A stretch of 34,901 bases of DNA, taken from Octopus sinensis. Lineage: Eukaryota. The stretch is taken from contig NW_021829926.1 in the NCBI RefSeq assembly GCF_006345805.1, positions 1-34,901 on the forward strand, given 5' to 3'. Under the pieces are notes generated by a model, which had not been told where the DNA came from, made no database searches, and saw nothing but the letters and a program-made list of their open reading frames with translations. Numbering within the stretch: the stretch's first letter is position 1; every line of letters begins with the position of its first letter. Below, piece by piece: positions 470-29,184 of this stretch. Position numbers and translations under genes: made by a program.

Positions 470-680
470 GTGTGTCATCATGTTAGACCGCTGAACTCTA
501 TACATTTCTTTCATTCTCTTTCTGTCTAGTTCCACTTATTCCTTTCCGTTTAAGAGCATAGGCTCGAAACGTAAAAGACGTTTTGCTTTTTGCCCGAGCG
601 TCAACTAATGCACATGCTTGTCGTTCCTATATTTATCTTCGCTTTTGTTCTCTTTATTTTTCTATAAATTAGAACTATAT
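470..680 (+). mobile_element. Short PLE-associated unit with a degenerate hammerhead-like motif (541-577)
   Basis: TTTAAGAGCATAGGCTCGAAACGTAAAAG at 549-577. Homologous to 7808-7997. Confidence 0.55.
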
Positions 681-1055
681 ATATATAAAGAATATGAGAT
701 TTTAGTTCACTGGTGATGTCAACGAATAGGGACGCTAAGTGCTATAATTGGTCATCCGTCAGGTGCAAAGTTCACAGCCGAGGATGGAGCTAGGAATCCG
801 TATTAGGGCTATGTGTTAGCAGGTATATATTAGGGGAGGAGGACAACAAAAACTAAGGCAGGGGGACTATCACAAGCTATTTATAATAATTTAATTAGGG
901 TAAGGTGAGTTTGAAGTCTTACATGCATATATGGGCGTGTGTCTTTGTGTCTGTGTTTGTCCCGTACCACGTGGCCGAACTGAGTGGTTCATAAGCAGTA
1001 ATATAATGCTTTAGAATATATATACATATATATTTAGATATATAGATAGATACAG

Positions 1056-1102
<47 letters not shown>

Positions 1103-1140
1103 TCAGACGGGGTGGTAGAGAGATAAATATATAGATATTC

Positions 1141-1327
1141 CTTTCTGCTATAAGTACAAGGCCTGAAATTTTGGGGAAGCGGGTAAGTTGATTACTTAAT
1201 TTATCGACTCCAAATGGATGAAAGACATAGTTGACCTCCGGCAGCATTTGAACTCAGAACGAGAAGATAGACGAAATACCGCAAAGCATTTCACCCCGGG
1301 TGCTAACGATTCTGCCAGCTCGCCGTC
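1141..1327 (-). mobile_element. tRNA-derived SINE family B (internally deleted)
   Basis: Minus-strand head GGCGAGCTGGCAGAATCGTTAGCA, B box GAGTTCAAAT, and core TTTCATCC..GGAGTCGATAAATTAAGTA. Confidence 0.85.
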
Positions 1328-1393
1328 TCTGTAAATATAATGAAATTGGTATATATACACATATACATATGCTTGTACATAAATATAAATGAA

Positions 1394-1662
1394 ATGGCCA
1401 CTAAGTGGACATCCATTACGCTAGAGGTAGACGCCCATATGGTCTGACCGCTAAGAAAAGATTGTTCTCAAGAAAATTCAACAAACGTTAGAACGTAAGC
1501 CAGCAAGACAAATGTGATTAATCTTTATATTTTGTATCTTTTCATTTGTCTTGCTGGCTTACGTTCTGACGTTTGCTGAATTTTCTTGAGAACAATATTT
1601 TCTTAGTGGTCACACCATATGGGGTCTATCTCTAGCATAATGGATGTCCACTTAGTGGTCAT
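1394..1662. repeat. Fold-back inverted repeat: ~120-bp arms (1394-1514 and 1543-1662) with a 28-bp spacer
   Basis: ATGGCCACTAAGTGGACATCCATTA...CCAGCAAGACAAATG is mirrored by CATTTGTCTTGCTGG...TAATGGATGTCCACTTAGTGGTCAT, with about 9 differences. Confidence 0.95.
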
Positions 1663-1893
1663 CCCTCTTATATGCATGTAATTTATATATTTTTTAATCT
1701 CCAGATTTTTCAATATGCTAGGCCTCTGGTTTTAAATTGATATTAATCAAATTAATATTCAATGTTTCAACCTTATTTAAAATCTTGTACTATATATATA
1801 TATTCTATATATGTTAATAAAATAGAACATATGCATATATATAAACATATATGTACGTACCACCTCTACATGTACATATACACGCATATATGT

Positions 1894-2070
1894 GTACAGG
1901 ACACCAAAAAAGACGTCGAAACCCATAGAGACGGACGAAACACATAGACACAAACCAAGGAACAAGACAAGCAAAAAAAAAAAGAGAGAGAACAGGACAA
2001 TAAGCAACGAAAAATCCCCTTCTTCAGTCGCTAAGGTTTCATCTACTAAACGTTTCGAAGGATAAAAGGA
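1894..2070 (-). mobile_element. Short TA-flanked repeat unit with permuted hammerhead-like boxes (2014-2063)
   Basis: Minus strand: ATCCTTC-GAAACGTT...GA-CTGAAGA-AGGGGAT, followed by a pyrimidine-rich tail like that of 28231-28352. Confidence 0.4.
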
Positions 2071-2104
2071 TATATATATGTGCGTTGTGTGTGTATATAT
2101 GTAA

Positions 2105-2518
2105 TTCTTTATTGCCCACGAGGGGCTAAACATAGAGGGGACAAACAAGGACAGATAAACGGATTACGTCGATTATATTGACCCCAGTGCGTAACTGGTA
2201 CTTATTTAATCGACCCCGAAAGGATGAAAAGCAAAGTCGACCTCGGCGGAATTTGAACTCAGAACATAGCGACAGACGAAATACCTATTTCTTTATTACC
2301 CACAAGGGGCTAAACATAGAGGGGACAAACAAGGACAGACATAGGTATTAAGTCGATTACATCGACCCCAGTGCGTAACTGGTACTTATTTAATCGACCC
2401 CGAAAGGGTGAAAGGCAAAGTCGACCTCGGCGGAACTTGAACTCAGAATATAGCGACAGACGAAATACCGCTAAGTATTTCACCCGACATGCTAACGCTT
2501 CTGCCATGTCACCGCCTT
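2105..2518 (-). mobile_element. SINE family B dimer (full monomer 2287-2518 plus 5'-truncated monomer 2105-2285)
   Basis: Two ~180-bp near-identical tandem copies of GGGGCTAAACATAGAGGGGACAAAC...GTCGACCTCGGCGGAA.TTGAACTCAGAA...GACGAAATACC. Confidence 0.92.
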
Positions 2519-3649
2519 CATGTGTATGTATATATGTATTACGTATGTATCTATATGTATAGGTATTTACGCTTTTATGTATGTATCTGTCTATCCCTCT
2601 TTCTATCTATCGTTTCTAAAGAGGAAAGGACTTAAAGGGAAAACTACGTTTCAGTGTAGAATAGAGGCAGAAACTATAAAACCAGAGAAATGCTGGAGTT
2701 AAGTTATCATGGATTCTACGTGTATGTAGGGAAATGGTTAAGTGTATGTGAATAGTGAACGTGGTCTAAATTGTTACGGGTTTGGGAAGGGAGTAGTAGA
2801 AGACTTCGATCGAGTTTCGTGTTCAATGGAAATTAAAAATATGTCGTGTATAACATGGCAGGCTTGGAAGGAGAAGGGCATTTGATATTGATACACCTGC
2901 AGCTAACTCGCAACTGACTAACAGGAAGTCTGCAGATGTCCACCAGGCATTAAGGCTTGATAGTGCTGTTATCGTTGCTGTCGTAGTTATTGGTAATGAT
3001 TGTGGTGGTGGAGGTGTTGGTGGTGGTGGTGTGGTGGTGGTGGTTGTTAAGTTGGAGGTGGTGCTTATGATGGTACTGATTATAATAGAGTACATAAGCA
3101 TTCCTTGGCCGGTTGATTTGGTCGGAATGGAGATGTTTGTGAGATGTTCATGTGTATGAGTTTATACATACATACATACATACATACATATAAAGACAAG
3201 CTAACAGCAGACAAGTTGCACACATATATACACAGACACACATAGGTATATGTGTTGTGTATACATACATACATATATATATATATATAGGAGAGGAAAA
3301 ATTATAGTAAGGCAGCGTGCTAAATTGAAAGTAAATTTCGATAGAAATGGGTGTATGGAAAATTAAAAAAGAAAAAATAATAAATTATGTCGGTTTTTAT
3401 TGCAAGGCAAATTTTCAAGATTTGGAAGGAGAAAAGAAATTATTTTCAAATTGAGGAAGGGGAAAAAATAAATTTACAATGTTTTTTTCAAAAAAAAATA
3501 ATACATATATACAAAAATTAATAAATAAGTATACCAATCCATTGTAGATTCTTTATGCTTTTAGAGTTCAGTAATAGTCCTTGGAAAAACTTCTTTGGAG
3601 GATTAGGATGCATGTGCTTAAATGTAGTGTTTAGTTTCAAGGGTTGGGT

Positions 3650-3685
<36 letters not shown>

Positions 3686-3699
3686 CATATATACATATA

Positions 3700-3942
3700 C
3701 ATCCAACCATTTTGACGTCACTCCTTATAAAGGAATTTTTAAAGAAACACTCATTATCACTATGGGCTCCGTGTGAGCAGTCATCGAAAAGTTTTTGTGC
3801 ATCTTGATGTTGACATAAGTTCCTTGCTTTTCCTGATGAGAAAGCGGCATAATATACTCCTTATTCCTTCGCAATTAGGAATATGCAGCCTTCGAAACAA
3901 TAAAGGAATTTTGTTAATTCGTCGTTCAACTCCATTCTTTCA
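3700..3942 (+). mobile_element. PLE 3'-end (pseudo-LTR-like) fragment between TA tracts
   Basis: It carries an HHR. The upstream frame reads GIFKETLII, resembling the GIY-YIG C-terminal KExLxI motif. The 3' motif CGTTCAACTCCATTCTTTCA resembles 19559-19578. Confidence 0.6.
3820..3908 (+). ncRNA. Type I hammerhead ribozyme motif with long stem II (stems I and III imperfect)
   Basis: CTGATGA at 3833-3839 and GAAAC at 3894-3898. Stem II GAAAGCGGCATA/TATGCAGCCTTC pairs 10 of 12 positions. TTCCTT/AAGGAA flanks can pair. Confidence 0.7.
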
Positions 3943-4299
3943 TATATATATATATATATCTTTTATTTATACATATACATACATACATGCATACATATAC
4001 ACACATATGCACACGCACATATATTTAATCACAATTTCTGGATTCAAGAAATCCGTTAGGACTCATAATAAATGCTCCTTAATGTATCATTGTACAAAGC
4101 ATGTTGAATATAGAGTAATATACAAGAAAAAATATAAGGAGTGTATAAAGTCATTAATGACAGAGAAATAATATGATAAACTTTTATTTAGCAAAAGAGA
4201 AATCCTAATATCACGACAAATTTCTTTCATAACTAAAAAAACATGGAAATAACTTTAAATCATATTTAATAGTGATTAAATAACTTACATTTCTATATT

Positions 4300-4497
4300 T
4301 AAGAGATGAGGAATTATCTACATTATTTACATTATTTACATTTGACGGATATTTGTCATTATCTTGTTTGTTGCTAACACAACGTTTCGGGTGATATACC
4401 CTCCAGCCTTCATCAGGTGTCTTGGAGAAATTTCAAACCTAGGTTCTCATTCCTAAGGTATTTTTCGATGTTGTTGTTGTTATTATTATTATTAATC

Positions 4498-4561
<64 letters not shown>

Positions 4562-4612
4562 CCAAGATTCCGAGTTCGATTCCAGGCAATGACATGAATA
4601 ACAACAACAACA
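4300..4612 (-). mobile_element. HHR-bearing element with an inverted tRNA B-box fragment (4562-4612, + strand)
   Basis: GAGTTCGATTCC at 4572-4583. The 16-mer AATAACAACAACAACA occurs both after the B box (4597-4612, +) and upstream of the HHR body (4469-4484, -). Confidence 0.6.
4376..4421 (-). ncRNA. Minimal type I hammerhead ribozyme
   Basis: Minus strand: GACAC-CUGAUGA-A-GGCUG-gaggguauau-CACCC-GAAACGUU-GUGUU. Stem I is GACAC/GUGUU, stem II has one mismatch, and stem III is the palindrome ACGU typical of PLE minimal HHRs. Confidence 0.8.
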
Positions 4613-4617
4613 AGAAT

Positions 4618-4660
<43 letters not shown>

Positions 4661-4668
4661 TAATAATA

Positions 4669-4699
<31 letters not shown>

Positions 4700-4709
4700 T
4701 ATAATAATA

Positions 4710-4745
<36 letters not shown>

Positions 4746-4753
4746 CAATAATG

Positions 4754-4801
<48 letters not shown>

Positions 4802-4805
4802 ATAT
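4469..4805. repeat. (TTA)n and (AAT)n inverted microsatellite pair, then (TA)n
   Basis: Read directly from the sequence. Confidence 0.95.
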
Positions 4806-5672: not shown

Positions 5673-6075
5673 ATTCCTTTATTCTTTTACTTGTTTCAGT
5701 CATTTGACTGCTGCCATGCTGAAGCACCACCTTTAGACGAGCAAATCGACCCGAGGACTTCTTTGTAAGTCTAGTACTTATTCTATCGGACTCTTGTGCC
5801 GAACCGCTAAGTTGCGGTGGTGTAAGCACACCAGTACCCGTTGTCAAGCGATGTTGGAGCGAGGGGACAAACAGACACACACACACACAACACACACACA
5901 TATATATATACAACGGGCTTCTTTCACCTTCCATCTACCAAATCTACTAACAAGGCTTTGTTCAGCCCTAGACTATAGTAGAAGATACTTGCCCAAGGTG
6001 CCACGCGATAGGACTGAACCCGGAACCATGATGTTGGAAAGCAAGCCACTAACCACACAGCGACTCCTGCACCTA
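5673..6075 (-). mobile_element. Full-length SINE family A (tRNA head, central TA/TG microsatellite, tail ending GACTGAAACAAGTAAAAGA)
   Basis: Minus-strand head AGGTGCAGGAGTCGCTGTGTGGTTAG...CCGGGTTCAGTCC. Colinear with the copy at 18825-19860. Confidence 0.92.
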
Positions 6076-6102
6076 TAACGTTAGGTCTAACATATACGTA
6101 CA

Positions 6103-7034: not shown

Positions 7035-7297
7035 CTTTTGGTTGGTGGTGATGAAGGTTGTTGCTGTTGTTGTTGTTGCTGAAGATAGTGATGATGTTTG
7101 TGATAATGATGATGATGTTGAGGAGGTGTAGGAGGAGGAGGAAAAATGAGGGTGATGATGTTCTTGATGATAGTGATGCTGATGCTGATGATAATGACGA
7201 TGATGTTAGTGATGATAGCGACCGTGATGATGATGGTGATTATGAGGATGATCATGATCATGATGACGATGACGATGACGATGATGAAGTCGACGAT
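7035..7297. repeat. (GTT)/(GAT)/(GAC) trinucleotide low-complexity tract
   Basis: Read directly; it explains the poly-M/D/I ORFs. Confidence 0.9.
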
Positions 7298-7588
7298 AAG
7301 GGGGGGTGGACCCACCCGCCCCAGACTATTGTATAAACGTAAAGTCGGACGAAATGCCTCTGAGTATTTTAACCGTGCGGTAGCAATTCCACCAGCTCAC
7401 CGCGTTCTCCCATAGTTATCATATTGAGAACATTATTGTTAAACTTATCAACGTTGTTTTTGTTTAGCCCCAGGTCAGTAATAAGTGAAAAAAGCCTTTG
7501 ATCAAAGTTATTGCAACCACGACCATCTGGTATTTCTGTTATAAGTTTGGACACGGTATGTTCAAGACGATATTATACAATGCTGGAC

Positions 7589-7749
7589 AGGCGCAGGCGT
7601 GGCTGTGTGGTAAAAAGCTTGCTTCTCAGCCACATGGTTCCGGGTTCAGTCCTACAGTATGTCACCGTGGGCAAGTCTCTTCTACTATAGCCTCGGGCCG
7701 ACCAAAAGCATGTGGGTGGATATGGTAGACAGAAACTGAAAGAAGCTCG

Positions 7750-7750
<1 letters not shown>
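7589..7750 (+). mobile_element. SINE family A head
   Basis: AGGCGCAGGCGTGGCTGTGTGGTAAAAAGCTTGCTTC...GGTTCCGGGTTCAGTCC...GAAACTGAAAGAAGC. Confidence 0.9.
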
Positions 7751-7788
<38 letters not shown>

Positions 7789-7807
7789 TACGCATATATA
7801 TATTTAG

Positions 7808-7994
7808 ATCGCCATGACAGATCGTTAGCCACTACACACATTTTTTCTCTCTTTGTTTTTCTGTGTCCCTTTCTGTAGAAGAGCGTAGGCTCGAAACGTA
7901 AAAGACTTTTTCTATTCGTGAGCGTTATACTAATACATGTGTTTGTTTTGTGCACCACCTGTCTTCGTCTTTTGTTTTTTTTCGTAAACTTTCC

Positions 7995-7997
<3 letters not shown>
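7808..7997 (+). mobile_element. Short PLE-associated unit with a degenerate hammerhead-like motif (7868-7904)
   Basis: TAGAAGA-GCGTAGGCTC-GAAACGTA-AAAG. The CUGA box is altered, while the palindromic ACGU and GUA triplet are retained. Homolog of 470-680. Confidence 0.6.
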
Positions 7998-8083
<86 letters not shown>

Positions 8084-8668: not shown

Positions 8669-9695
8669 CACGTCGAGCAATGCTGCTATCAGTATTGTTT
8701 TTCGGCTCCTTACGTTCTAGGTTTCGGGACCGATAAAATAAAGTACCAGTAATATAATCGACTTAACCGCTTCCCCTAGAATGTACTAAACTTTGAAATC
8801 TTAACTTAGCGTCATAAAGGCGGCGAACCGATAGAATCGTTATTGTGCCAACGCGGCCACCTAACAGAAACGTTAGCAGGCCGGGCGAAATACTTTGTGG
8901 CATTTCGTCTGCCGTTACGTTGTGAGTTCAAATTCTGCCGAGGTCGACTTTACCTTTCATCCTTTCGGGGTCGATAAATTAAGTAGCAGTTACGCACTGG
9001 GGTCGATGTAATCGACTTAATCCCTTTGTCTGTCCTTGTTTGTCCCCTCTATGTTTAGCTCGTTGTGGGCAATAAAGAAATAAAAAAACGTTAGCACGCT
9101 GGGCGAAATGCTTCGCGGTATTTCCTCTGCCGCTACGTTCTGAATTCAAATTCCGCCGAGGTCTACTTTGCTTTTCATCCTTTGGGGGGTCGATTAAATA
9201 AGTACCAGTTACACATTGGGGTCGATATAATCGACTTAATCCGTTTGTCTGTCCTTATTTGTCTCCTCTATGTTTAGCCCCTTGCGGGCAATAAACAAAT
9301 AAGAATCGTTATTGTGCTAGACAGAATTCTTTACTGCATCTCTTCTGGTTTTAGTTTCTGAGTTCAAATACCGCTGAGATCGACATTATGCAGCATCCTT
9401 TCGGGGTCGCTAAAATGATTCCCAGTTCATCTCTGAGGGTCAATGCAATCTGCTAACTACCTCCTCCATAATTTCAGGTCCTCCATATTTTCTGGGTGGT
9501 GAGATGGACAAAATGCTTAGGCGGCATTTCTTCCGGCTTTGACGTTGTAAGATCAAATCCCACCGAGGTCGAATTTGGTTTCTATGACTTCGGTGCCGGT
9601 AAAATAAAGAACCAGTCATGTAGTGAGGTCGATGCAGCTGACATGGACCCTTTTTTACTAAAATTGCTAACTTTGTGCAAAAATTAGCAGGAATT
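8669..9695 (+). mobile_element. Head-to-tail cluster of five SINE family B copies, including a nested dimer (8849-9301)
   Basis: Young monomers at 8849-9085 and 9086-9301 are flanked by the 16-bp duplication AGAATCGTTATTGTGC (8833-8848, 9302-9317). Older copies lie at 8669-8800, 8818-9480 (host) and 9503-9695. Confidence 0.88.
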
Positions 9696-13645: not shown

Positions 13646-14667
13646 CTATAAAATACCAGAATCGATAATTATTTTGCAACCGCATAACTGTGAACTAAAA
13701 TACCGCTGGAGAAACTATGTCACTCATAGACGTTACAATTGACTTTAGCTAGAAAAAGAACCAACGATGCTATGTTGCTCTGTGTAACACACGCGAGCTC
13801 CAGCAGGCTATGTTATTCTATTTTAAAGTCCTTCCTTTTATTTCACTTAAGCGAGCTGGTAACCGGTGATCTAGAGTACACTAATTTCGGGATATGAAGC
13901 AAAATATTCAGTGATACGTATCCCTCTTATGGATTACGAAAAGCAAAATCAAAAAATTTTTCAGGCGGTTTTTATCTTTTTCCCTTTTCGCCCCCTTCTT
14001 TTGTCTAAGATCTTATACTTTCTATACTTTCTTTTACAGAAATGTTTTGAGAAATTTATTTCATTTCCAAATTGATAATTTAAATGAATAATTAATTTAG
14101 ATTGGGTTAAATGGCATCGTTTTAATGACATCCAAACTTTAAAAAATAATTCTCATAAATTGAAGCTAAATATAATCTATAATTCTTTTTTTCTTCTCTT
14201 TGTACTGGTTAATGAAGAGGTTGAAGGTGTCACACGCAGAGCAACAATTAAAAGAATTACCGAATTTTCTTCATAAAACCTGTATGAATTTTGACAAATT
14301 GTTCAAGAGATCGCACGCATAAAACAAATGTGTATGAGAGTACTTTAAGTCTAATACACAAAATTATGTGTGTGTAATGGTGTTGAATTACGCCCCGCTT
14401 TTCTCTTTTTGAATTTAATTTTGTTGTAGAGCAACTGATTATTCATGATCGATATCAAACCAAAGATAAAATTTTAAAATAACACGTTCTAAAGTGAACG
14501 CTTAAAGGTTTCACCACGATCTATAAACAAGAGATTGACTTTACACCTCACCGTTCACTGTAGAAATAGACGCCACAAGCCCTATTACCACCTTAAAATC
14601 TCCGAGATTAACACATTATATTGTAGGCGAGCAAAAGAAAAATAATGAATCAACAACTTTTCGGTTA

Positions 14668-14736
14668 ACTGCGTACAAGATCCTGTTTCAAGCTTAAAGT
14701 AAAAACATATTACTCATTGCTCTCATCAGCGACAGT
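14668..14736 (-). ncRNA. Type I hammerhead ribozyme
   Basis: Minus strand: ACUGUCG-CUGAUGA-GAGC..AGUAA..UUACU..GCUU-GAA-ACAG(GAUC)UUGU-A-CGCAGU. All three stems form. The GUA triplet predicts a cut between 14674 and 14673. Confidence 0.82.
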
Positions 14737-14949
14737 ATTCCATAGCATAAATTTACGAATATCTCAAAATATGCATGCGAGCTGCGACGTCGCGTAAACA
14801 TTATCCATCCACACTCGTAGAAATATACTGCACAGAAGAATTCACATCTTTCTTTTATACCCACGTGTAGTGTGTCAAGATCTAGGCGACAGTTCATATA
14901 GTTTCGATCAGGGAGTAAATATTTCAAATATCAATTATAATAAAAGGTA

Positions 14950-16190
14950 AAAATCATTAATAATTTTACCCTAAACCTCTAAAATCATTAATAATTTTAC
15001 TCTAAACCTATCTATCACACTCGAAAACGCTCACAAAACTGCTAACCTTCTTGACGCAACTTTAAACTTATCAATCTCCCAATACTCTCCGTACCACAAA
15101 CCTAACCAATATCTTAAATAGCTTAACATTCACTCCAGTTACCACAAATCCACTTTCGATAACATAATTAAGGGCATCTCAACCCGCACATCCGACCTCT
15201 CTTCCACTGAGTAAATTTTCAATAATCCCGCACCATATTATTATCAAACACTCGCCACTAGCAGCTTTTCCCAACAAATAGAATACATCCATAACACCAG
15301 GCTCAAAAAATACATATCACAAATCACATCTCAAACACGCACCAACCATCATAATCGCAACCAACCACACACATTCGTCGATGGAACTCTGGAAGGATTT
15401 AAACATAGGCTACCTAGACTACCCCCCCACACACACTTTCATTTAACACTATGTGAAAAACGAAAGCAGCAACAGGCCTCACCACTCATATATTCTCCAA
15501 CAATATAGATAGCACTCCTTTATCGAAAAACTTACATAGTGCTGCTCCCAGATCCCCTAAAAAAGCAGCAGACGCTCTATTCTGTGGTACGCACCCCCAT
15601 GCTCACTTAACGTTAAGAACTTAGCTAAATCCTTCTTTAAAATACTAGACTCTAACTTCCCTCGGCAACATAAATATCATTCTATCTTTAATTGATCCAC
15701 TCTGAAACTATCTTCTACCCCACCCAACTTCGAATCTATTGTAGCAGCCTCTAATAAGCAAAAGCTTTCTCTTTGCTCTCAAAACTCACATAATTACAAC
15801 TCTAGTCATACGAACACTCAACACACACACAGCTCCAGCACAGATACCCTTACATTAGACCATAACCACAGCTCAACCCATCCTACTGACACTGTCCGGA
15901 ACACCATCACAATCTCTACCACCCTTAATAGTAATAATAACAACAATGTTAATGATAACGTTAATAATACTAATAATCTAAAATCTTCTATCCCCTTCTC
16001 TAACCTCTCCTCTGACGCTATTACCTCCGCTATTCCTGAACACATTCCCCAAAATTCACCAAACTGTAATTGCCGTGTGGAACCACCTGCCCGTTACAAA
16101 TCTATTGCAGAATAATAATGTAATTTACAAATGCACTGTCCTTAATCTATTACACAACTCTACAGTCATATACATAGGATCAACCATAAG
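14950..16190 (+). mobile_element. Decayed Penelope-like retroelement (Naiad-type): RT C-terminus/thumb, linker and start of GIY-YIG endonuclease
   Basis: Manual translation gives LSITLENAHKTANLLDATLNL..YSPYHKPN (from 15008), ILWYAPPCSLNVKNLAKSFFKILDSNFPRQHKYHSIFN*STLKLS (~15580-15715) and CNCR..TCPL..C..NVIYKCTV...IYIGST (~16065-16185). It contains stops and frameshifts. Confidence 0.88.
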
Positions 16191-18762: not shown

Positions 18763-19251
18763 CTATGTTATATTAAATTCCTACTTTTATTTACAATATT
18801 AACATATTTATTTACGATATTAACAGGCGTAGGAGAGGCTGTGTGGTAAGTAGCTTGCTTACCAACCACATGCTTCCGGGTTCAGTCCCACTGCGTGGCA
18901 CCTTGGGCAAGTGTCTTCTACTATAGCCTCGGGTCGACCTTGTGAGTGGATTTGGTAGACGGAAACTGAAAGAAGCCCGTCGTATATATGTGTATATATA
19001 TATATATATATAACTATTTATATATATATATATATATATTATGTGAAATAGAAAGATGAATAATCTTGTAGTAGATTAATCAAAAGTTTAACCGATACCT
19101 TAGTAGCAAAAATCACAGCAGTAAACAGCACGGTTGGAGGTACAACCATCTGGCGTAGCAACCGTGCGTTGGTGCGGATAATTGAAATTAAAACATTATT
19201 GGTGAATTGAAGAAATGGAGCTGAACGCAGATTGAACAGAAATCGTTTTAT

Positions 19252-19337
19252 TTCATTCTACACGTGTTTCGAAAGGCACAAATACCAAAATCCGATTGAA
19301 TAATGGGACCATATTGTGTCTTTCTCTTCAGGAAGAA
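19252..19337 (-). ncRNA. Type I hammerhead ribozyme (left arm of palindrome)
   Basis: Reverse complement of 19448-19534. Confidence 0.85.
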
Positions 19338-19447
19338 AAAAGAAATCCGTTGGAAAAACAAAAACAGAACAGATGCGGAGCAAAAACAAATCGATTTGTT
19401 TTTGCTCCGCATCTGTTCTGTTTTTGTTTTCCAACGGATTTCCTTTT

Positions 19448-19534
19448 TTCTTCCTGAAGAGAAAGACACAATATGGTCCCATTATTCAATCGGATTTTGG
19501 TAATTTGTGCCTTTCGAAACACGTGTAGAATGAA
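19448..19534 (+). ncRNA. Type I hammerhead ribozyme (right arm of palindrome)
   Basis: UUCUUC-CUGAAGA(19454-60)-GAAAGaCACAA..UUGUGcCUUUC-GAA-ACACGUGU-A(19527)-GAAuGAA. Stem II pairs 10 of 11 positions, stem III is palindromic and the cleavage triplet is GUA. Confidence 0.87.
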
Positions 19535-21537
19535 ATAAAACGATTTCTGTTCAATCTGCGTTCAGCTCCATTTCTTCAATTCACCAATAATGTTTTATAT
19601 ATATATATATATATTATATATATATATATATATGTGTGTGTGTATGTTTGTGTGTTGTATTTGTTCCCCATAACATCGCTTGACAACCGATGCTGGTGTG
19701 TTTATGTCCCCGTAACTTAGCGGTTCGGCAAAAAGAGAACCGATAGAATAAGTACTAGGCTTACAAAGAATAAGTCCTGGGGTCGATTTGCTCGACTAAA
19801 GGCGGTGCTCCAGCATGGCCTCAGTCAAATGACTGAAACAAGTAAAAGAGTAAAAGAGTATATATTTATAAGCTGTTATAAAATTTAGCTTACATTTACG
19901 ATAAGGTTACAAAGATAATAGATGTGATATAGGGGAATACATCTGTGACCACGTTGTAGATAGAAGCACGGTGAACATTTTTAGCGATTCATAGTGTATA
20001 GAACTATTCGGAAATGGAGCAATCAATAGGATACATGTATTTTAAGTAGCTGATATTTAGTAGCAAAATTGATCTGACATAAATATACTGTACTATAACG
20101 ATATAGAGGTGGCTTTTGTCACTACATGTGCAATCGCTTTATATTTTCTTTGTTTAAAATAGAATTATTTAAATTTTCAAAGAATTCTTTCTTGTAATTA
20201 GTTTTCAGAAGTATCTAGCTATTTTTATACTAACTCCAGTTTCCAGTTTCTTTTTTGGTTTTTGTACCAAAATGCCTAATAAATAGTTAAATAAGGCCTT
20301 ACACATATTGTAAAGTGGTGATCAATGGGGATAGTAGAATATCACTTGTTAGTAGAGTATCCAGGCCTAGACTGGATCGGTCTAGTTTATATATGCATGT
20401 TCGAATATATCTCGAAGCACACACACATAAAGCTGATAACGACAGACTGTAGAAATTGAGCTGAAAATCCCTCTTGGATAGAAAAAGAAGGAGGCTGTCT
20501 TTCTATTGAAAATGTGTTTCAACTCAGTATTTACACGTATTTGCTTATAGCTTTATGTGTGTGCTTCGAAATATACTATTCCAAAATCAAATACGTTATG
20601 CTCTCCTAGAAGTTAAGAAAATTCTTGTGACGTCAACTGTATATGTTTTTGTGTACTTATGTATGTATGTGTGCATTTGTGTGTGGTGTGTATGTATGTA
20701 CGTACGTGTATGTATGTACGTACGTGTATGTACGGGTGTGTGAATGTGTTTTCTGAAGGACTGAGAAGAATTCTGTAGTTCTAATACTTTATTACATTCA
20801 TGATTGCAGAATGAATTCTTTGCAAAAAGCGATGGCGTTTGTTTACATTTAAGGTATTTCTGTGCCGAAGAAAGAATCAATATTTAATAAGATAAAAATG
20901 TAAAAAAAACATAGGGTGCTGAACAATGTATAAGGAATACCCCCGTAAGATGTCAACCCGGGGAGAAGGAAAGTAAATTAAACAGATGATTTAGAAAGAT
21001 CGCAAATGAAAAGATAGGGGATGCAGACAAGTTACAAGAAGCGATGATGAAATAAAATATATGTTAACGCACGGAGCGCACGGAGATGTAAAAAGACTTA
21101 AACCGTATATGTGGTTATCAAACATAGCCACAACAAACTAATTCATTTGGAAAATATAAATAAGCGTAAAGAGAGCGGAACGGAGAAAATATAAACATTG
21201 AGTTTGACAAAGAAGTCAGTAAAGTTTCAGAACATGAGAGTTTGAGTAAATGAGGAAATGATTTTGAAGTATATTCTGCCAGTTTAATAATAATAAGTAT
21301 GGAGATGTAATTATTAAACATGGCTCCCGCTGAACCACAAGCAACGCTGTAACCAATGAGAAAGCTTTATTTAGGCTTGCGATATGGTTCAGGCATTTTT
21401 AGCTGTATTCTCTATTTAACGTGAGCTTAAATGTAATTTGTTGGATATTATTAGAGATGAAGGAAAAAAAATAAAACAAAATGGAAAGAAAAATGAACTA
21501 TAAATGAAACACAAATAAAAATCAATTATGTGAAAGA

Positions 21538-24907: not shown

Positions 24908-24983
<76 letters not shown>

Positions 24984-25115: not shown

Positions 25116-25374
25116 ATGACATAATTTAAAAGATCTTTGATGCAATTGTTGTAGTTACAAGGTACACTCTGACAATCAGTAATAGCATGCACATTGCTCC
25201 TGGTTCAATTCCATATTATTACATATTTGAGGTATATATCATTTATCAAAATCTTCTCAAAATAGAAAAGGATCCAATGTCCTTCTTGATCCTTAGAATC
25301 TTAAGCCCATTTTTTCGGATTCTGTGGTGCATATATATTTCCATGTAACCTGGACAAGACGCTGGGTCGTTGTA

Positions 25375-25503
25375 GGATTGCTCAATTATGTGTGATAAGT
25401 GTATTGGAGGAAGTATTTTGCGCAAGGATGCAACATAGCCCGTCCAGGAATCGAAACAGCAATCTTCCAATCAAAAGTGCAAAATATCAATCGTTAAGCC
25501 AAG
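25375..25503 (-). mobile_element. Old SINE family C head
   Basis: Minus strand GGCTTAACGATTGAT...GCTGTTTCGATTCCTGGAC..GTTGCATCCTTGCGCAAAATACTT. Confidence 0.6.
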
Positions 25504-25643
25504 TTCCGCTACCAAATTCTTTTATCACACATGTATGCCATTATTAATGGTTTCTCCTGCAGCTGACTTCCTGATATAACGTCCGGTATTTATATTTATT
25601 TAAGAATATATGTCCTTGCATTGATACGTGCGTATATTTATCA

Positions 25644-26098
25644 ATGTATATACATGTATATACTGTGTACACATATATATTATATATATATGTATATGCT
25701 GTGTATATATATATATTATATATATATGTATATGTGTATATATATACGTATGTATATATATGCATATATATATGTGTATACGTATGTATATATGTATGTA
25801 TATGGATATCTATATGTGTATGTATATGTATATATATATAAATATGGATATATGTATGTATATGTATGTATATATGTATATGTATATATATATTTATATG
25901 TATACATATGTATATGTATGTATATATATGTATATTTATATGTATATATGTATATATATGTTTATGTATATATATGTATATAATATATACTACATATACA
26001 TATGCATATATATATATATATATGTATATATATGTATATATACATATGCATATATATGTACATATATATATGTATATGTATATCAACATACATATACA
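25644..26098. repeat. (TA)n/(TATG)n microsatellite
   Basis: Read directly from the sequence. Confidence 0.95.
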
Positions 26099-26350
26099 CA
26101 ACCTCGCAACGGTATCAATCTGTGTACAGTAATTAAGTAACAACGATCGTAGATATTTGCTATTAAGAATTTCCATGGGCGTCGCTTGTGTACGGAAGTT
26201 GATATACGTGTGCAGCTGATGGAAATAGCAAGACACATGATATAACGTATATGTGTACATGCATATATATCTGTATCTACATCCATATCAATATGAATGT
26301 GTGTATGTATACATACATACATACATACATACATTATATATATGTAATAT

Positions 26351-26385
<35 letters not shown>

Positions 26386-26405
26386 ACACACACACACATA
26401 TATAT

Positions 26406-26444
<39 letters not shown>

Positions 26445-27258
26445 TATATATATATATGATGTTATCAGATGATTAAGAAAATATTACATCTTGACTGATT
26501 TTGAGGAATACCAGGATGGGTGGCCGATCAGATCTTTTGCTAGCCAGATTAACATCAGTAAATTTCTTTCTGGCCCCTCTCCATGGGTCTTTGTTTATTA
26601 TATCTATATCATATATATTATACATGTGTTCGTGTGTGTTTATACACACACATTCGCACACATACACGCTTAAGAGTGAGGAGATTATATTTCCTTGCTG
26701 CCTCTGAGTTTACACATGCACGTACATGCGTACATAAATATCTATTATATAACAGTAATTTAATAGATTCCTCCGTTTTTAGAAAACATTAGCAGAAATT
26801 CAAGTGACAGGTGTTGCGGCTGGACCAAAATTTATAGCTAAAACAATTCTCAATTTGTTGGTAAATATTTATCCACTGGCTGAACTTGGCTGGCATAAAC
26901 AAAAGAGAGAGCTTTTTTTTAATATATATATATAATATAAATGATTAAGTAACGTTAAACATCATTTTAGTTTATTCATTGCTTGTTTGGTTTCAGACAT
27001 CCATGCTGGAAAAATGCCTTCATAGACATAAAAAGGCGTACGTCTCTGCCTTTATTCGTTCTGAGAGAAAATGTTTAAAAGTATAAATGTTCTATAATTC
27101 ACTTCAAAATATTTCAGATGTAAATCAAATAAGAGACATATGAAGCAGTTACGTTTTTAAAATGTTCTTCGTATTGAGTCGATTTTCGAGACAAGTGTCA
27201 AGTGTTCTAGAATTAATAACTGATGTAAGTTAAGGTACGACTGGGCATGTCTGTAGTA

Positions 27259-27290
<32 letters not shown>

Positions 27291-27341
27291 CTACACATAC
27301 ACACCACACACCACACACACATACATTATAATATATATATA

Positions 27342-27380
<39 letters not shown>

Positions 27381-27472
27381 CACATATATATCAAAGTGGA
27401 GTTGTAGGGTACCGCACGAGTGGAATTATATACGAAAGAAGGTTTTAAAATGCAATTTTAACAGATGTTTAT

Positions 27473-27517
27473 TTACTTTACCGGTTTCACTCTTTAGAAA
27501 AAGTTTGTCAAAAGTAA
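27473..27517 (-). ncRNA. Decayed minimal type I hammerhead within a TA-flanked unit (~27392-27650)
   Basis: Minus strand: UUACUU-UUGACAA-ACUUUU(UCUA)AAGAGU-GAAACCGGUA-AAGUAA. It has 6-bp stems I and II and the palindrome ACCGGU. The core has two substitutions relative to CUGACGA. Confidence 0.7.
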
Positions 27518-27748
27518 CATGTAGAAGTTTGGTTGCGTTAATTATTGGTTGTTACAAATTGCTACATTACATATATACAGTCTTTGGTAACAAGGACATG
27601 TTAAGGACATAAAAAAGTTTAACAAGTTCATAAAAATATGGCGCAAAAAATTATATATATATATATATATATGTGGTGGTGTATATATATATGTATATAT
27701 ATATTATGTATATATGTATAATATATATATATATATATATAATATATA

Positions 27749-27816
<68 letters not shown>

Positions 27817-28194
27817 GTATATATATTTTAAACCATGGTTTACCTTTAAATTACCAACTACTGTATGCCTTATAACAGGACTATACATTTTGAGGTAATA
27901 CACCATTAGTGCCTACGGGTACATTTAGACAGTTGCATAACCTCTTACACTTTTCATATATATATATATATATATATATAAATATCGGGAAGTATATTCG
28001 TCGCCTAAATATGGCTTTCCCATATAGGACGATGCTACTGTATTTTATAGCCCTAGGAAGACATCTCCAGTTGGCTGTTGACACACTGCCCTATCAGTAT
28101 TTGTTAATGGAAATCATCCTTTCCATCTCCAGCCTGATTACAAATAATGTGCCTGTTAAAAACTAAGGATGCTTTTTAAAAATTAGTACGATAT

Positions 28195-28216
<22 letters not shown>

Positions 28217-28233
<17 letters not shown>

Positions 28234-29184
28234 GAAAAGTACAAACTGGGACAAGAACGTAAAACATTTAGAAGACGATACAAAAACACGGACGGGACAT
28301 TCGAAGCCTTCAATCTTCAGTCAAGAACCGGATCATCCTAGCAATTTCGGCTGATTAATCTTGAGATCGCTCCGATCCGGCCAGCTCCAAGGAAAAACTA
28401 AGCTACGAGCATTAGATTTCTTGGAAGAAGGATCGAATGTATACGAAACAGGGACAGAAAAACGGACGATGCCCACACGAATATAAAATACAAAAAAAAA
28501 TAATGGTAAAAACAGGACAAAAACAGGCGGGTGTCTTACGACTAATAACAGTACAAGTTTAGCTGGCGTATTTAGAAAAAATGCTTTTATCGGCAGACGA
28601 AGACAACGATGTTCTCACGGCAGTGGTCGGAGGCCAAAAGGCTGATTTTGAACAGCGGTCACGCAAGAGAAGAGAGAGAAAAGAAAGGGGGAAAAGGAAG
28701 CAAAGAGAGAGAGAGAGAGAGAAAGAGGGAAGAAGGCAAACAAAGGAAGAAGAGAGAGAAAGAAGGAATTAAAGAGGGGAGAAGAAAGAGTGCGTGCCAA
28801 GGATTGGCTTGTGAGTGCAAAGTGAGAAAGACAAAGAAATGTGAGAGAGTGGAGGAAGAGTAGACCAAAGAATCAGAGGCAAGAAAAGAGAAAAGGAGGA
28901 GAAGTAGAGAGAGAGAAGAGGACAGATCAAAGTAGAGTGCAAAGTGTGAAAGGCAGAGAAATGTAGGAGAGAGAGACAGTGTGTAGAGTCGTACCAAATT
29001 TACAGGAATATGTACTTACATAAGGCCAACGAGGGTACGGACGTCGCTATATATATTATACGTAGAAAAATACAAACTGGGACAAGAACGTAAAACATTT
29101 AGAAAACGATACAAAAAACACGGACGGGGCATTCGAAGCCTTCAATCTTCAGTCAAGAACTGGATCATCCTAGCAATTTCGGCT
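28217..29184 (-). mobile_element. Non-coding partial-tandem element with ~135-bp direct repeats (28217-28352, 29048-29184); period ~831 bp
   Basis: GTAGAAAA.TACAAACTGGGACAAGAACG...TCTTCAGTCAAGAAC..GCAATTTCGGCT is repeated with few differences. The interior is GA-rich and the element is flanked by TA. Confidence 0.85.

What the first reader, a model, noticed from the sequence alone, without database searches (positions are those of the whole stretch)
470..29184. High density of diverse hammerhead-bearing non-coding mini-elements
Seen: intact-core HHRs at 3820, 4376, 14668, 19252 and 19448; decayed ones at 541, 7868 and 27473; and permuted-order motifs at 2014, 28305 and 29137. They belong to several sequence-distinct units, mostly 150-560 bp and embedded in TA tracts, and lie near two Naiad-type PLE relics. 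Palindromic stem III variants ACGU, ACCGGU and ACACGUGU, plus near-palindromic ACAGGAUCUUGU, form a length series. Inference: a set of non-autonomous, retrozyme-like ribozyme elements mobilised in trans by PLE RT/GIY-YIG, possibly at very high genomic copy number.
Basis: partly seen in the sequence, partly recalled or inferred. Interest (0 to 1): 0.75.

Follow-up and report, generated by a model that had tools for sequence, protein, structure and literature searches.

The report
Hammerhead-bearing Penelope retrotransposon fragments
This repeat-rich stretch of an animal genome holds broken-off end pieces of Penelope-like jumping genes, plus two kinds of short non-coding elements, all carrying the small hammerhead ribozyme motif already known from such elements and predicted to cut their RNA, so it is a rich example of a known system and not a new one.

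Summary
Partly confirmed. Five sites have the CUGANGA…GAAA core. Three (14729-, 19331-, 19454+) pass a full Penelope-type hammerhead descriptor, against 0 hits in 500 shuffles. The 4416 copy has a mutated helix II. The 3833 copy lacks helix III and the cleavage site through a 12-nt deletion. The "decayed" (541, 7868, 27473) and "permuted" (2014, 28305, 29137) sites belong to repeat families whose other copies also lack a complete core, so they are not hammerheads. Rfam support is weak (14.9 bits against a cut-off of 34).

The motifs lie in four high-copy families:
- A and D are terminal repeats of autonomous PLEs with ORFs up to 923 aa and at least 8042 first-look candidates.
- C is a tRNA-headed SINE-like element.
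- B is a roughly 500-bp non-coding unit inserted as more-than-unit-length copies.

The PLEs and both coding relics in the window are Hydra-type (C-terminal GIY-YIG, DKT, no CCHH), not Naiad.

All of this matches published PLE biology. This scan has already noted a tRNA-headed hammerhead SINE on other DNA (e1-9536931). Self-cleavage and trans-mobilisation remain untested.

The parts
19394..19597 (+). Family A: 5'-truncated copy of the terminal repeat (pLTR/3' tail) of an abundant autonomous Hydra-type PLE. It is the right arm of the head-to-head pair and ends in a (TA)n tract.
   Evidence: 43 genomic matches at 97-100% identity, at least 866 first-look candidates. Longer copies extend upstream into the ORF. 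All 6 copies that end at this point abut (TA)n.
18983..19391 (-). Family A: inverted 5'-truncated copy, the left arm, with a longer tail reaching about +410.
   Evidence: 412-bp inverted self-match at 98.5%. Extent taken from L003 against L001.
19442..19541 (+). Hammerhead motif of family A. Order: helix I 5' strand, CUGAAGA (19454-19460), helix II GAAAGACAC...GUGCCUUUC with a ~40-nt loop, GAAA (19516-19519), palindromic helix III ACACGUGU (19519-19526), H17 = A (19527). Predicted cleavage after 19527.
   Evidence: Sequence. Hammerhead_1 14.8 bits, below cut-off. Passes both descriptors. MFE fold forms helices I and II, z = -0.10.
19245..19343 (-). Mirror-image hammerhead motif of family A on the minus strand. 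C3 at 19331, helix III 19267-19260, H17 at 19259.
   Evidence: (14.9 bits).
14526..14970 (-). Family B: 5'-truncated copy of a ~500-bp non-coding hammerhead unit. It abuts relic 1 head-to-head.
   Evidence: At least 328 first-look candidates at 73-93% identity. Nine different 5' ends and a shared 3' end. X-B5'-HHR-X organisation with a period of about 500 bp. Absent from the relic-1 family tail.
14664..14741 (-). Hammerhead motif of family B. CUGAUGA (C3 at 14729), helix II GAGC/GCUU, GAAA, near-palindromic helix III ACAGGAUCUUGU (14686-14675), H17 = A (14674), helix I with one bulge.
   Evidence: In a 10-copy alignment GAAA is invariant and 3 of 10 copies have first-box mutations. MFE fold forms helices I and II, z = -1.12.
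4288..4561 (-). Family C: 5'-truncated copy of a tRNA-headed SINE-like element, holding the (AAT)n tract, hammerhead body and tail but no head.
   Evidence: 94% identical to L059 positions 90-364. At least 4986 first-look candidates. Structure of full copies.
4374..4425 (-). Hammerhead motif of family C. CUGAUGA (C3 at 4416), an extra A, helix II (GGCUG/CAGCC in other copies, CACCC here so weakened), GAAA, helix III ACGU (4385-4382), H17 = U (4381), helix I ACAC/GUGU.
   Evidence: The window copy fails the descriptor, the L059 copy passes on both arms, and L057 fails. No Rfam hit.
4562..4600 (+). Partial tRNA-like head of a second family C copy, joined head-to-head to the first and followed by (AAT)n at 4597-4759.
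3699..3955 (+). Family D: 5'-truncated copy of the terminal repeat of a second autonomous PLE, sister to family A.
   Evidence: At least 2339 first-look candidates at 92-95% identity. 3 of 10 loci carry the PLE endonuclease coding region at -905 to -555. Tail is 71-78% identical to the family A tail.
3820..3898 (+). Broken hammerhead of family D. CUGAUGA (3833-3839), helix II and GAAA (3894-3897) are present, but a 12-nt deletion removes helix III (ACAUAUGU or ACAUGU in other copies), the cleavage site and the start of helix I.
   Evidence: Alignment of 10 D copies and 4 A copies.
14975..15821 (+). Relic 1: decayed C-terminal part of a PLE reverse transcriptase, with internal stops.
   Evidence: tblastn with L041 ORF and 31 homologues, 26-49% identity. 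Stops shown. Own family has at least 332 candidates at 80-87% identity.
29567..29998 (-). Relic 2: decayed Hydra-type GIY-YIG endonuclease domain (CxCX5C linker, VIYQCDV...YIGAT, CNLC..E), with stops and frameshifts.
7752..8078 (+). Family E copy (a second copy lies at 541-621): CUGUAGAAGA-GC-GUAG-GC-UC-GAAACGUA. The first box is non-canonical in every copy examined, so this is not a canonical hammerhead.
   Evidence: At least 762 first-look candidates at 94-97% identity, 16 of 16 copies identical in this box. No Rfam hit.
27396..27671 (-). Family F copy: GAAACCGGUA half-motif only, with no CUGANGA box.
   Evidence: At least 2287 first-look candidates at 94-98% identity, 6 copies displayed and none with the box.
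28217..28400 (-). Family H copy (a second copy lies at 29048-29184): a satellite-like ~140-bp unit with GAAA 24 nt upstream of a single CUGAAGA. Not a hammerhead.
   Evidence: 95.6% direct repeat. At least 1548 first-look candidates. 324-bp tandem array of 3.8 copies elsewhere. No Rfam hit.
2021..2027 (-). Isolated CUGAAGA at the '2014' site, with no downstream GAAA. Not a hammerhead.

Best explanation
The hammerhead motifs in this window sit in 5'-truncated copies of four repeat families: two are the terminal repeats of autonomous Hydra-type Penelope-like retrotransposons (PLEs), one is a tRNA-headed SINE-like element and one is a ~500-bp non-coding unit, and the last two are likely copied in trans by the PLE enzymes.

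Shown by calls or sequence:
1. Families A and D continue upstream, in longer copies, into an ORF of about 850-920 aa with reverse-transcriptase motifs followed by a C-terminal GIY-YIG-like domain. The hammerhead lies about 600-680 nt after the ORF end.
2. The segment that follows the hammerhead recurs directly upstream of the ORF, which is the pseudo-LTR arrangement.
3. Copies are heavily 5'-truncated, share their 3' ends, and are often joined head-to-head at variable points. That produces the 19189-19597 palindrome, with one hammerhead on each strand.
4. Families B and C show the same truncation and head-to-head signatures but have no coding capacity.

Inferred from published PLE biology:
- Transcripts that run through tandem or pseudo-LTR copies are predicted to be cut after H17 by the hammerhead. 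Because helix III is a short palindrome, cutting would work best when two ribozymes pair as a dimer.
- The unit-length (possibly circularised) RNA would then be copied at (TA)n-rich targets by the PLE reverse transcriptase and GIY-YIG nuclease.
- Incomplete copying and strand switching would give the truncated and inverted copies.
- B and C would use the same enzymes through their hammerhead-bearing 3' modules.

Most individual copies, including 3833 and 4416 in the window, are dead debris.
For: Parent elements:
- The A tail has 43 matches at 97-100% identity and at least 866 candidates.
- 5' truncation points run from -33 to -2159.
- ORF pieces carry FDIASFYPSI, VPMGSS and YRDD, followed by VYQCKV..YVGAS..CNLC..E.
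- At least 8042 candidates match the RT fragment, with open frames up to 923 aa. An 846-aa open frame is in L041.
- D: the endonuclease coding region lies at -905 to -555 in 3 of 10 loci.
- pLTR: in L040 tail +90..+355 lies directly upstream of the ORF on the same strand. L030 and L039 have inverted truncated copies at the 5' end.

[quoted passage not shown] These match the clade description in PMC8557442 (passages). An AF2 model of the C-terminal domain has pLDDT 82, and its best Foldseek rows are GIY-YIG nucleases.

Hammerheads:
- Descriptor hits are 3 against 0 in 500 shuffles.
- The A and D tails are 71-78% identical.
- Between A and D the core differs only at the free position N7. H17 changes A to C, both allowed. 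Helix III changes ACACGUGU to ACAUAUGU or ACAUGU and stays self-complementary.
- Family C has the extra nucleotide after A9, G10.1-C11.1 and a palindromic 15.2-16.2, all listed as PLE min-HHR hallmarks in PMC4209133 (passages).
- The same paper reports dual hammerheads 100-700 bp apart on opposite strands.

Non-autonomous families:
- C: the head homology starts at one place in 18 of 24 rows. GCCCACGGGCAT precedes it in 4 of 8 copies. One copy has a 10-bp target-site duplication, and there is no poly(A).
- B: X abuts B5' in 7 distinct places, and L106 and L107 read X-B5'-HHR-X.

Targets: 6 of 6 family A copies that end at +204 abut (TA)n.
Against: - Rfam scores are far below the family cut-off, and only family A aligns at all.
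- Thermodynamic folding gives no signal above shuffles: z = -0.10, -1.12, -1.52 and -2.14. For C and D the MFE fold is not the hammerhead.
- Pfam does not recognise the L041 ORF. RVT_1 scores only 13.9 bits on a fragment. A profile search against PDB sequences found nothing.
- Foldseek matches to GIY-YIG enzymes are not significant: best E = 0.064, TM 0.40-0.45.
- Apparent compensatory changes in helix I of family B sit at CpG sites and may be plain decay.
- Family D's helix II has two mismatches, and its copies fail the descriptor.
- No tail homology was found between B or C and the autonomous tails A and D, or between B and the relic-1 family tail. No partner PLE is identified.
- The tail of the relic-1 PLE family shows no CUGANGA box in the first ~850 nt after its ORF, so a hammerhead is not universal here.
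- The tRNA nature of C's head is not confirmed by ARAGORN or Rfam.
Confidence: 0.8

Rival explanations
1. All hammerhead-bearing units form a separate, retrozyme-like system of non-autonomous mini-elements. They would propagate as small self-cleaved circular RNAs and use PLE enzymes only in trans.
For: B and C are short, non-coding and very abundant. B occurs as more-than-unit-length copies with a period of about 500 bp, as a circular or multimeric template would give. Retrozymes as pLTR-derived PLE dependants are published (PMC7229834 passages; preprint 10.64898/2026.07.22.740005, abstract and section 14).
Against: A and D continue into intact PLE ORFs. The window has no direct tandem array of hammerhead units. 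The only tandem arrays seen (184/219-bp units, and the 324-bp family H) lack a hammerhead core. No circular RNA evidence could be obtained. The hammerheads are of the minimal PLE type, not the canonical type I with loop-loop contacts that defines retrozymes.
Confidence: 0.1
2. Family B is not an independent non-coding element. It would be the pseudo-LTR of an autonomous PLE whose ORF-bearing copies are rare or were not sampled, and X-B5'-HHR-X copies would be solo or partial-tandem pLTRs.
For: Family A shows the same circular permutation: tail +90..+355 lies upstream of the ORF. B copies show a 5'-truncation gradient, with candidates falling from at least 328 at the hammerhead to 99 at the 5' part. 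Only the 40 best candidates per search are scored, so rare long copies could be missed. The window copy abuts a PLE RT relic head-to-head.
Against: In 7 distinct places X is directly joined to B5' with no intervening sequence. There is no PLE coding sequence in the right orientation within 1.5 kb upstream in any of the 38 B-family locus records (32 distinct places) apart from the window's inverted relic. B is absent from the full ~1.3-kb tail of the relic-1 family.
Confidence: 0.25
3. The motifs are chance or vestigial sequence matches with no ribozyme activity, carried along passively in transposon tails.
For: Rfam scores are below cut-off. Folding z-scores are unremarkable. Families E and F amplified to hundreds or thousands of candidates with only half-motifs. 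The relic-1 PLE tail shows no first box in ~850 nt. PLE min-HHRs cleave poorly in vitro (PMC4209133 passage). Naiads proliferate without hammerheads (PMC8557442 passage).
Against: The full descriptor gives 3 hits against 0 in 500 shuffles. The core is preserved between A and D, which are only 71-78% identical, with changes only at the permitted positions and a palindrome-preserving double change in helix III. The same architecture appears in four unrelated tails. The motifs lie where the literature places them.
Confidence: 0.08

Closest known systems
Minimal type I hammerheads in the pseudo-LTRs of metazoan Penelope-like elements (Cervera & de la Pena 2014, PMC4209133; passages read)
   Same: They lie in the terminal repeat of PLEs. 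Helix II is long and helix I short. There is an unpaired nucleotide after A9 (family C), a G10.1-C11.1 pair (A, C, D) and a short palindromic helix III that implies dimers. Motif copy number is very high, pairs occur on opposite strands 100-700 bp apart, and most copies are dispersed single motifs.
   Different: Helix II carries unusually large loops of about 25-40 nt in A, B and D. Helix III ranges up to 8-12 nt of self-complementary sequence. Family B has G10.1-U11.1. Activity was not tested here.
Hydra clade of C-terminal EN+ PLEs (Craig et al. 2021, PMC8557442; passages read)
   Same: A single ORF with the RT followed by a C-terminal GIY-YIG domain. DKT in place of DKG. An RWK-type N-terminal motif. 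A CxCX5C linker (homologues and relic 2). [quoted passage not shown] CxxC and CxH around the catalytic E and N. Canonical-core hammerheads, (TA)n insertion, 5' truncation, and partial tandem or inverted copies.
   Different: The abundant L041 family has RWL instead of RWK. It has replaced the CxCX5C linker with a long S/N-rich insert and has one cysteine in the GIY strand (VYQCKV). No phylogeny with reference Hydra sequences was made.
Metazoan non-LTR retrozymes (Cervera & de la Pena 2020, PMC7229834, passages; preprint 10.64898/2026.07.22.740005, abstract and section 14)
   Same: Non-coding, low-GC, hammerhead-bearing units of a few hundred bp that co-occur with PLEs and are thought to depend on them. 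Family B's more-than-unit-length copies fit a multimeric or circular template.
   Different: No multimeric direct arrays were seen for B or C. At most about 1.35 units were observed for B. The hammerheads are of the minimal PLE type, not canonical with loop 1-loop 2 contacts. Circular RNA was not tested.
tRNA-headed, hammerhead-tailed Penelope-dependent SINE noted earlier in this scan (e1-9536931, another genome), and the hammerhead-bearing SINE-like repeats of Schistosoma (recalled from memory; the 2014 paper cites Ferbeyre et al. 1998 for thousands of canonical hammerheads there)
   Same: A composite of a tRNA-like head with Pol III box-like strings and a hammerhead-bearing 3' module. Very abundant, with target-site duplication and PLE-style inverted pairs.
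   Different: There is no sequence match between my family C unit and any earlier noted window. Family C carries an internal (AAT)n tract. The partner PLE is not identified.

Membership tests
Hammerhead ribozyme, type I (Rfam RF00163) | Conserved core CUGANGA ... GAAA, with H17 after helix III | tested here: met
   Present at 4416-, 14729-, 19331- and 19454+. At 3833+ both boxes are present but H17 and helix III are deleted.
Hammerhead ribozyme, type I (Rfam RF00163) | Score at or above the curated covariance-model cut-off (34 bits) | tested here: not met
   14.9 and 14.8 bits for the two family A motifs. No hit for the others.
Hammerhead ribozyme, type I (Rfam RF00163) | Helices I and II flanking the core | tested here: met
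   Three window motifs pass a descriptor requiring helix II of at least 4 bp and helix I of at least 5 bp with one bulge, against 0 hits in 500 shuffles. The 4416 and 3833 window copies fail.
Hammerhead ribozyme, type I (Rfam RF00163) | Self-cleavage after H17 | not testable with these tools
   No run is on record as RNA, and only contigs were available.
PLE minimal hammerhead (PMC4209133) | Located in the pseudo-LTR of a PLE | tested here: met
   Families A and D: the ORF lies upstream, and the tail segment is repeated upstream of the ORF. Not shown for B and C.
PLE minimal hammerhead (PMC4209133) | Palindromic 15.2-16.2 / loop 3 | tested here: met
   ACGU (C), ACACGUGU (A), ACAUAUGU or ACAUGU (D, other copies), ACAGGAUCUUGU with one G-U (B).
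PLE minimal hammerhead (PMC4209133) | Unpaired nucleotide between A9 and 10.1, and a G10.1-C11.1 pair | tested here: inconclusive
   Both are present in family C. A and D have G10.1-C11.1 without the extra nucleotide. B has G-U.
Hydra-clade PLE (PMC8557442) | C-terminal GIY-YIG endonuclease after the RT in one ORF | tested here: met
   Motif order in L030 and L041 and in 14 homologues. In the AF2 model of the C-terminal domain, Foldseek rows 1-8, 11 and 12 are GIY-YIG enzymes, but the best E is 0.064.
Hydra-clade PLE (PMC8557442) | DKG motif changed to DKT; RWK N-terminal motif | tested here: met
   DKT in L041 and most homologues (DKS in some). RWK, RWR or RWE in homologues and RWL in L041.
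Hydra-clade PLE (PMC8557442) | [quoted passage not shown] | tested here: met
   Alignments A1 and A3, and relic 2. Exception: L041 lacks the CxCX5C linker and has one Cys in the GIY strand.
Hydra-clade PLE (PMC8557442) | Clusters with reference Hydra RT/EN sequences in a phylogeny | not tested
   No reference sequences were at hand.
Naiad PLE (PMC8557442) | N-terminal GIY-YIG endonuclease, CxC linker, DKA motif, no canonical hammerhead | tested here: not met
   The endonuclease is C-terminal, the motif is DKT, and hammerhead cores are present. Relic 2 aligns to the C-terminal domain of the homologues.
Non-LTR retrozyme (PMC7229834) | Direct tandem repeats (dimers to multimers) of 150-450-bp units, each with a type I hammerhead | tested here: not met
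   None in the window. Family B reaches about 1.35 units. Tandem arrays found for other families lack a hammerhead core.
Non-LTR retrozyme (PMC7229834) | Expressed as small circular RNAs | not testable with these tools
   Searches gave no RNA-labelled run.
tRNA-derived SINE | tRNA-related 5' head with Pol III A and B boxes | tested here: inconclusive
   TGGTGTAGTGG and AGTTCGATTCC each match 10 of 11 positions of the box consensus as I recall it. ARAGORN found 0 genes, and Rfam gave no tRNA hit at E <= 10.
tRNA-derived SINE | Defined 5' end, no coding capacity, target-site duplication | tested here: met
   Head homology starts at query position 26-32 in 18 of 24 rows. Length is 304-400 bp in 7 of 8 copies. 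A 10-bp duplication was seen in 1 of 8 copies examined.
tRNA-derived SINE | 3' tail shared with its autonomous partner | tested here: not met
   No similarity to the A, B or D tails beyond TA repeats. Other PLE tails were not surveyed.

The most novel reading that the evidence does not exclude
Hydra-clade Penelope elements in this genome support two independent lineages of non-coding hammerhead parasites: a tRNA-headed SINE with at least 5000 copies and a ~500-bp circularly permuted unit. The hammerhead-plus-palindrome module, not any shared tail sequence, would be what the Penelope machinery recognises. That would make the ribozyme the portable ticket for trans-mobilisation.
Probability: 0.3. 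Interest if true: 0.5.

Novelty: new member of a known kind. Interest (0 to 1): 0.3.

Why it matters
Hammerheads in Penelope-like elements, Hydra-clade PLEs and PLE-dependent retrozymes are all in print, so the system itself is not new.

The locus is useful in two ways. First, it shows side by side the tails of two sister autonomous PLEs, whose ribozyme differs only at permitted positions and keeps a self-complementary helix III. That is modest comparative support for the dimer model. Second, it shows two non-coding families that carry the same kind of module without detectable tail homology to those PLEs.

If the module alone proved sufficient for trans-mobilisation, it would say how PLE enzymes pick their template, which is still unclear. 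The very young, intact, multi-thousand-copy PLE family is also a practical system for testing hammerhead function in PLE retrotransposition.

Tried and rejected
- Rfam at a permissive threshold on the whole window returned 321 matches. The 150 listed are microsatellite or hairpin look-alikes of miRNA families and hold no hammerhead; the other 171 were not shown.
- The repeat finder on the whole window was swamped by microsatellites. A dust-masked self-BLAST replaced it.
- Pfam on 111 window ORFs of at least 70 aa found no RT or GIY-YIG.
- Pfam on L013 ORFs found an RVT_1 fragment about 8 kb from the family A tail. I judged it a different element.
- Pfam on the L041 ORF and on six homologues found nothing usable. 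PHROGs found nothing meaningful. A profile search against PDB sequences gave 0 hits, as did phmmer of the endonuclease fragment.
- ARAGORN and Rfam on the SINE-like head gave no tRNA.
- Family B as the tail of the relic-1 PLE lineage is rejected: 0 of 9 loci, and 0 of 4 extended tails.
- The first apparent 5' extension of family C turned out to be an inverted copy of itself.
- Sequencing runs: no RNA holder is listed and all runs are kept as contigs. Laying four runs gave short repeat fragments, no pile-up of ends and only weak joints, so there is no evidence either way on expression or cleavage.
- The A/D alignment made for pair counting was misregistered for two rows, so I did not use it.
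- Earlier-findings look-ups by place and by sequence returned nothing.

Full report
**Setting.** The window is a whole 34,901-base contig of a 2.72-Gb animal genome. GC runs at 23-42%, and the sequence is crowded with TA, TG, AAT, GAA and GAT microsatellites. After masking, a self-comparison shows several dispersed repeat families and three palindromes.

**Are the hammerheads there?**
- The first box, CUGANGA, is not enriched by itself: 17 found against 11.3 +/- 3.2 expected.
- Five sites join it to a downstream GAAA: 3833+, 4416-, 14729-, 19331- and 19454+.
- Rfam finds nothing at gathering score.
- When the eleven listed sites are cut out and searched alone, only the two arms of the 19189-19597 palindrome align to Hammerhead_1, at 14.9 and 14.8 bits against a cut-off of 34. 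A 50-nt insert in helix II costs most of the score.
- A strict descriptor of my own found nothing.
- A descriptor allowing only contiguous pairs found the palindrome pair, against a mean of 0.043 hits in 300 shuffles.
- A descriptor built from the published features of Penelope hammerheads found 14729-, 19331- and 19454+. It allows an optional nucleotide after A9, requires helix II of at least 4 bp, a fully self-complementary helix III and H17, and lets helix I carry one bulge. None of 500 shuffles gave a hit.
- Folding energies alone are unremarkable, with z between -0.10 and -2.14.

**Family A (19189-19597).**
- One 204-bp arm has at least 866 first-look candidates in the genome, and all 43 scored matches are 97-100% identical.
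- In other loci the two arms keep the same inverted arrangement but meet at different points.
- Upstream homology stops at points from -33 to at least -2159.
- Long copies carry frameshifted ORF pieces with RT motifs followed by a GIY-YIG-like domain that ends 541 nt before the arm.
- Searching the genome with the RT piece gave at least 8042 candidates. All 150 scored matched, many with open frames of 860-923 aa. L041 holds an 846-aa open frame.
- In L040 the segment that follows the hammerhead (tail +90 to +355) lies directly upstream of the ORF on the same strand. In L030 and L039 an inverted truncated copy abuts the 5' end.
- This is the pseudo-LTR, partial-tandem and inverted-copy architecture described for PLEs (PMC8557442, passages).
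- The window therefore holds two extreme 5' truncations of this element joined head-to-head, each with a hammerhead about 600 nt downstream of where the ORF would end.

**Family D (3833).**
- It has at least 2339 candidates at 92-95% identity.
- 5' ends run from -13 (the window copy) to -1210. Three of ten loci carry the PLE endonuclease region at -905 to -555.
- Its tail is 71-78% identical to that of family A, so the two hammerheads are homologous.
- In the joint alignment nine of ten D copies read CUGAUGA, helix II, GAAAC(AU)AUGU, C, then GAAAAUAAAGGAA, which pairs with the upstream UUCCUUGCUUUUC.
- The window copy has a 12-nt deletion that takes away helix III, the cleavage site and the start of helix I. 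It is a dead ribozyme.
- Between A and D the core differs only at N7. H17 is A in one and C in the other. The helix III palindrome changes from ACACGUGU to ACAUAUGU or ACAUGU and remains self-complementary. This is the best comparative support for the fold available here.

**Which kind of PLE?**
- Pfam does not recognise the ORF, and profile searches of PDB sequences are empty.
- The large protein database gave 31 unnamed homologues of about 520-820 aa.
- The alignments show RWK/RWR near the N-terminus, DKT, a CxCX5C linker, no cysteines between the two halves of the GIY-YIG core, CxLC before the catalytic E and CxH after the N.
- That is the published signature of the Hydra clade, which also has canonical hammerheads and inserts into (TA)n (PMC8557442, passage).
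- The abundant L041 family departs in having RWL and an S/N-rich insert in place of the linker.
- An AlphaFold model of the C-terminal domain (pLDDT 82) has T4 EndoII, Hpy188I, the UvrC N-domain and I-TevI among its best Foldseek rows, but with E no better than 0.064. This counts as a consistent hint only.
- With these proteins as queries the window shows two coding relics: an RT C-terminal part at 14975-15821 (+) and an endonuclease domain at 29567-29998 (-). Both have stops. Relic 2 carries the Hydra linker and core.
- Neither relic is Naiad-type. Naiads have an N-terminal endonuclease and DKA, and lack canonical hammerheads.

**Family C (4416).**
- It has at least 4986 candidates at 91-95% identity and a fixed 3' end.
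- What first looked like an upstream extension was an inverted copy of itself.
- Full copies read, in order: a head with A-box- and B-box-like strings, an (AAT)n tract, the hammerhead body, and a tail without poly(A). The box consensus is recalled from memory.
- The head homology starts at one place in 18 of 24 rows, and a conserved GCCCACGGGCAT precedes it in 4 of 8 copies. One clean copy has a 10-bp target-site duplication.
- ARAGORN and Rfam do not call a tRNA.
- In other copies the hammerhead has an extra A after A9, a GGCUG/CAGCC helix II starting with G10.1-C11.1, and ACGU as helix III. These are the hallmarks listed for PLE minimal hammerheads (PMC4209133, passages).
- The window copy lacks the head, has a weakened helix II, and abuts a partial head on the other strand.
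There is no sequence match to my unit.

**Family B (14729).**
- It has at least 328 candidates at 73-93% identity, with nine different 5' ends and a shared 3' end.
- In ten aligned copies GAAA is invariant and three have first-box mutations, as expected of decaying insertions. The changes in helix I sit at CpG sites, so I do not count them as covariation.
- The window copy abuts relic 1 head-to-head. B is nevertheless absent from the whole ~1.3-kb tail of that relic's family.
- Walking upstream showed that the segment following the hammerhead (X) also lies directly before the 5' part in seven distinct places. L106 and L107 read X-B5'-HHR-X with a period of about 500 bp.
- No PLE coding sequence appears in the right orientation in any of the 38 locus records (32 distinct places).
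- B is therefore best read as a ~500-bp non-coding unit inserted as truncated, more-than-unit-length copies. That is retrozyme-like behaviour, though I saw no array of two or more full units. A rare coding parent is not excluded, because each search scores only 40 candidates.

**The other listed sites.**
- Family E (541, 7868) has at least 762 candidates, and all 16 copies examined share the non-canonical CUGUAGAAGA.
- Family F (27473) has at least 2287 candidates and no first box in the six copies displayed.
- Family H (28305, 29137) has at least 1548 candidates. It forms a 324-bp tandem array elsewhere and has GAAA 24 nt upstream of its only CUGAAGA.
- The 2014 site has no GAAA.
- None of these is a hammerhead.

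**TA tracts.** All six family A copies that end at tail position +204 abut (TA)n (12 copies examined). In the window, 4 of 10 units have a TA-run flank, against 9.3% of random windows.

**Mechanism.**
- Shown: the architecture, the truncation and inversion signatures, the position of the motifs, and their conservation between the A and D families.
- Inferred from the literature: cleavage after H17, preferably by dimers formed through the palindromic helix III; use of the processed RNA as a template by the RT and GIY-YIG nuclease at (TA)n targets; and trans-use of these enzymes by B and C.
- No RNA-labelled run was available, so expression and cleavage could not be examined.

**Verdict.** This is a good, dense example of a known system: PLE pseudo-LTR hammerheads, Hydra clade, with non-autonomous dependants.

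Noticed in passing
window 2105-2469, 8868-9302 (also 1193-1328, 33574-33884): Tandemly duplicated 184/219-bp units of another repeat that carries a B-box-like GTTCAAATTCC on the reverse strand. There is no hammerhead core. It looks like a duplicated tRNA-related SINE.
   Followed up: partly
window 5900-6076, 7587-7809, 18823-19039, 31470-31703, 32061-32333: At least five copies (about 75-83% alike) of a ~175-220-bp repeat whose reverse strand reads like a tRNA-derived SINE head (GGCTGTGTGGTAAG...GGGTTCAGTCCC). It is unrelated to the hammerhead units but often sits beside them.
   Followed up: partly
window 1376-1680 and 20406-20575: Two further palindromes (306 bp at 84% and 175 bp at 71%) with no hammerhead motif. 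The first looks like a foldback or MITE-type element.
   Followed up: no
window 14950-14969 and 14981-15000: A ~20-nt string (aaaatcattaataattttac) is duplicated on either side of the head-to-head junction between family B and relic 1. It may be the short 'tail' extension reported at PLE insertion ends, or a local duplication.
   Followed up: no
L086:2993-3842, L088:1-950, L095:1-500: The PLE lineage of relic 1 has a ~1.3-kb tail with an internal TG/TA microsatellite and no CUGANGA box in the first ~850 nt after the ORF. Not every Hydra-like PLE tail here shows a hammerhead core.
   Followed up: partly
L036:1279 and 1676 (family A tail): In one large run of unknown kind, two contigs join position 1676 to 1279, skipping 396 nt. 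1279 lies within 2-3 nt of the predicted hammerhead cleavage site. Support is weak (side 22 letters), but it would fit copies that begin at a ribozyme-made RNA end.
   Followed up: no
L057:1058-1634, L059:1003-1639, L078:1490-2086: Head-to-head pairs of family C of similar size (~580-640 bp) have arms only ~82% alike, while units from different loci are ~93% alike. L057 and L059 share collinear homology across the whole pair. The pair may itself have been copied as a unit.
   Followed up: partly
window 7050-7300 and 30190-30680: Long imperfect GAT/GAC/GTT triplet tracts that give open reading frames of 90-160 codons on both strands with no family match.
   Followed up: no
L013:9118-9900 (-): An RVT_1 reverse-transcriptase fragment (92.5 bits) about 8 kb from a family A tail. 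It probably belongs to a different retroelement.
   Followed up: no
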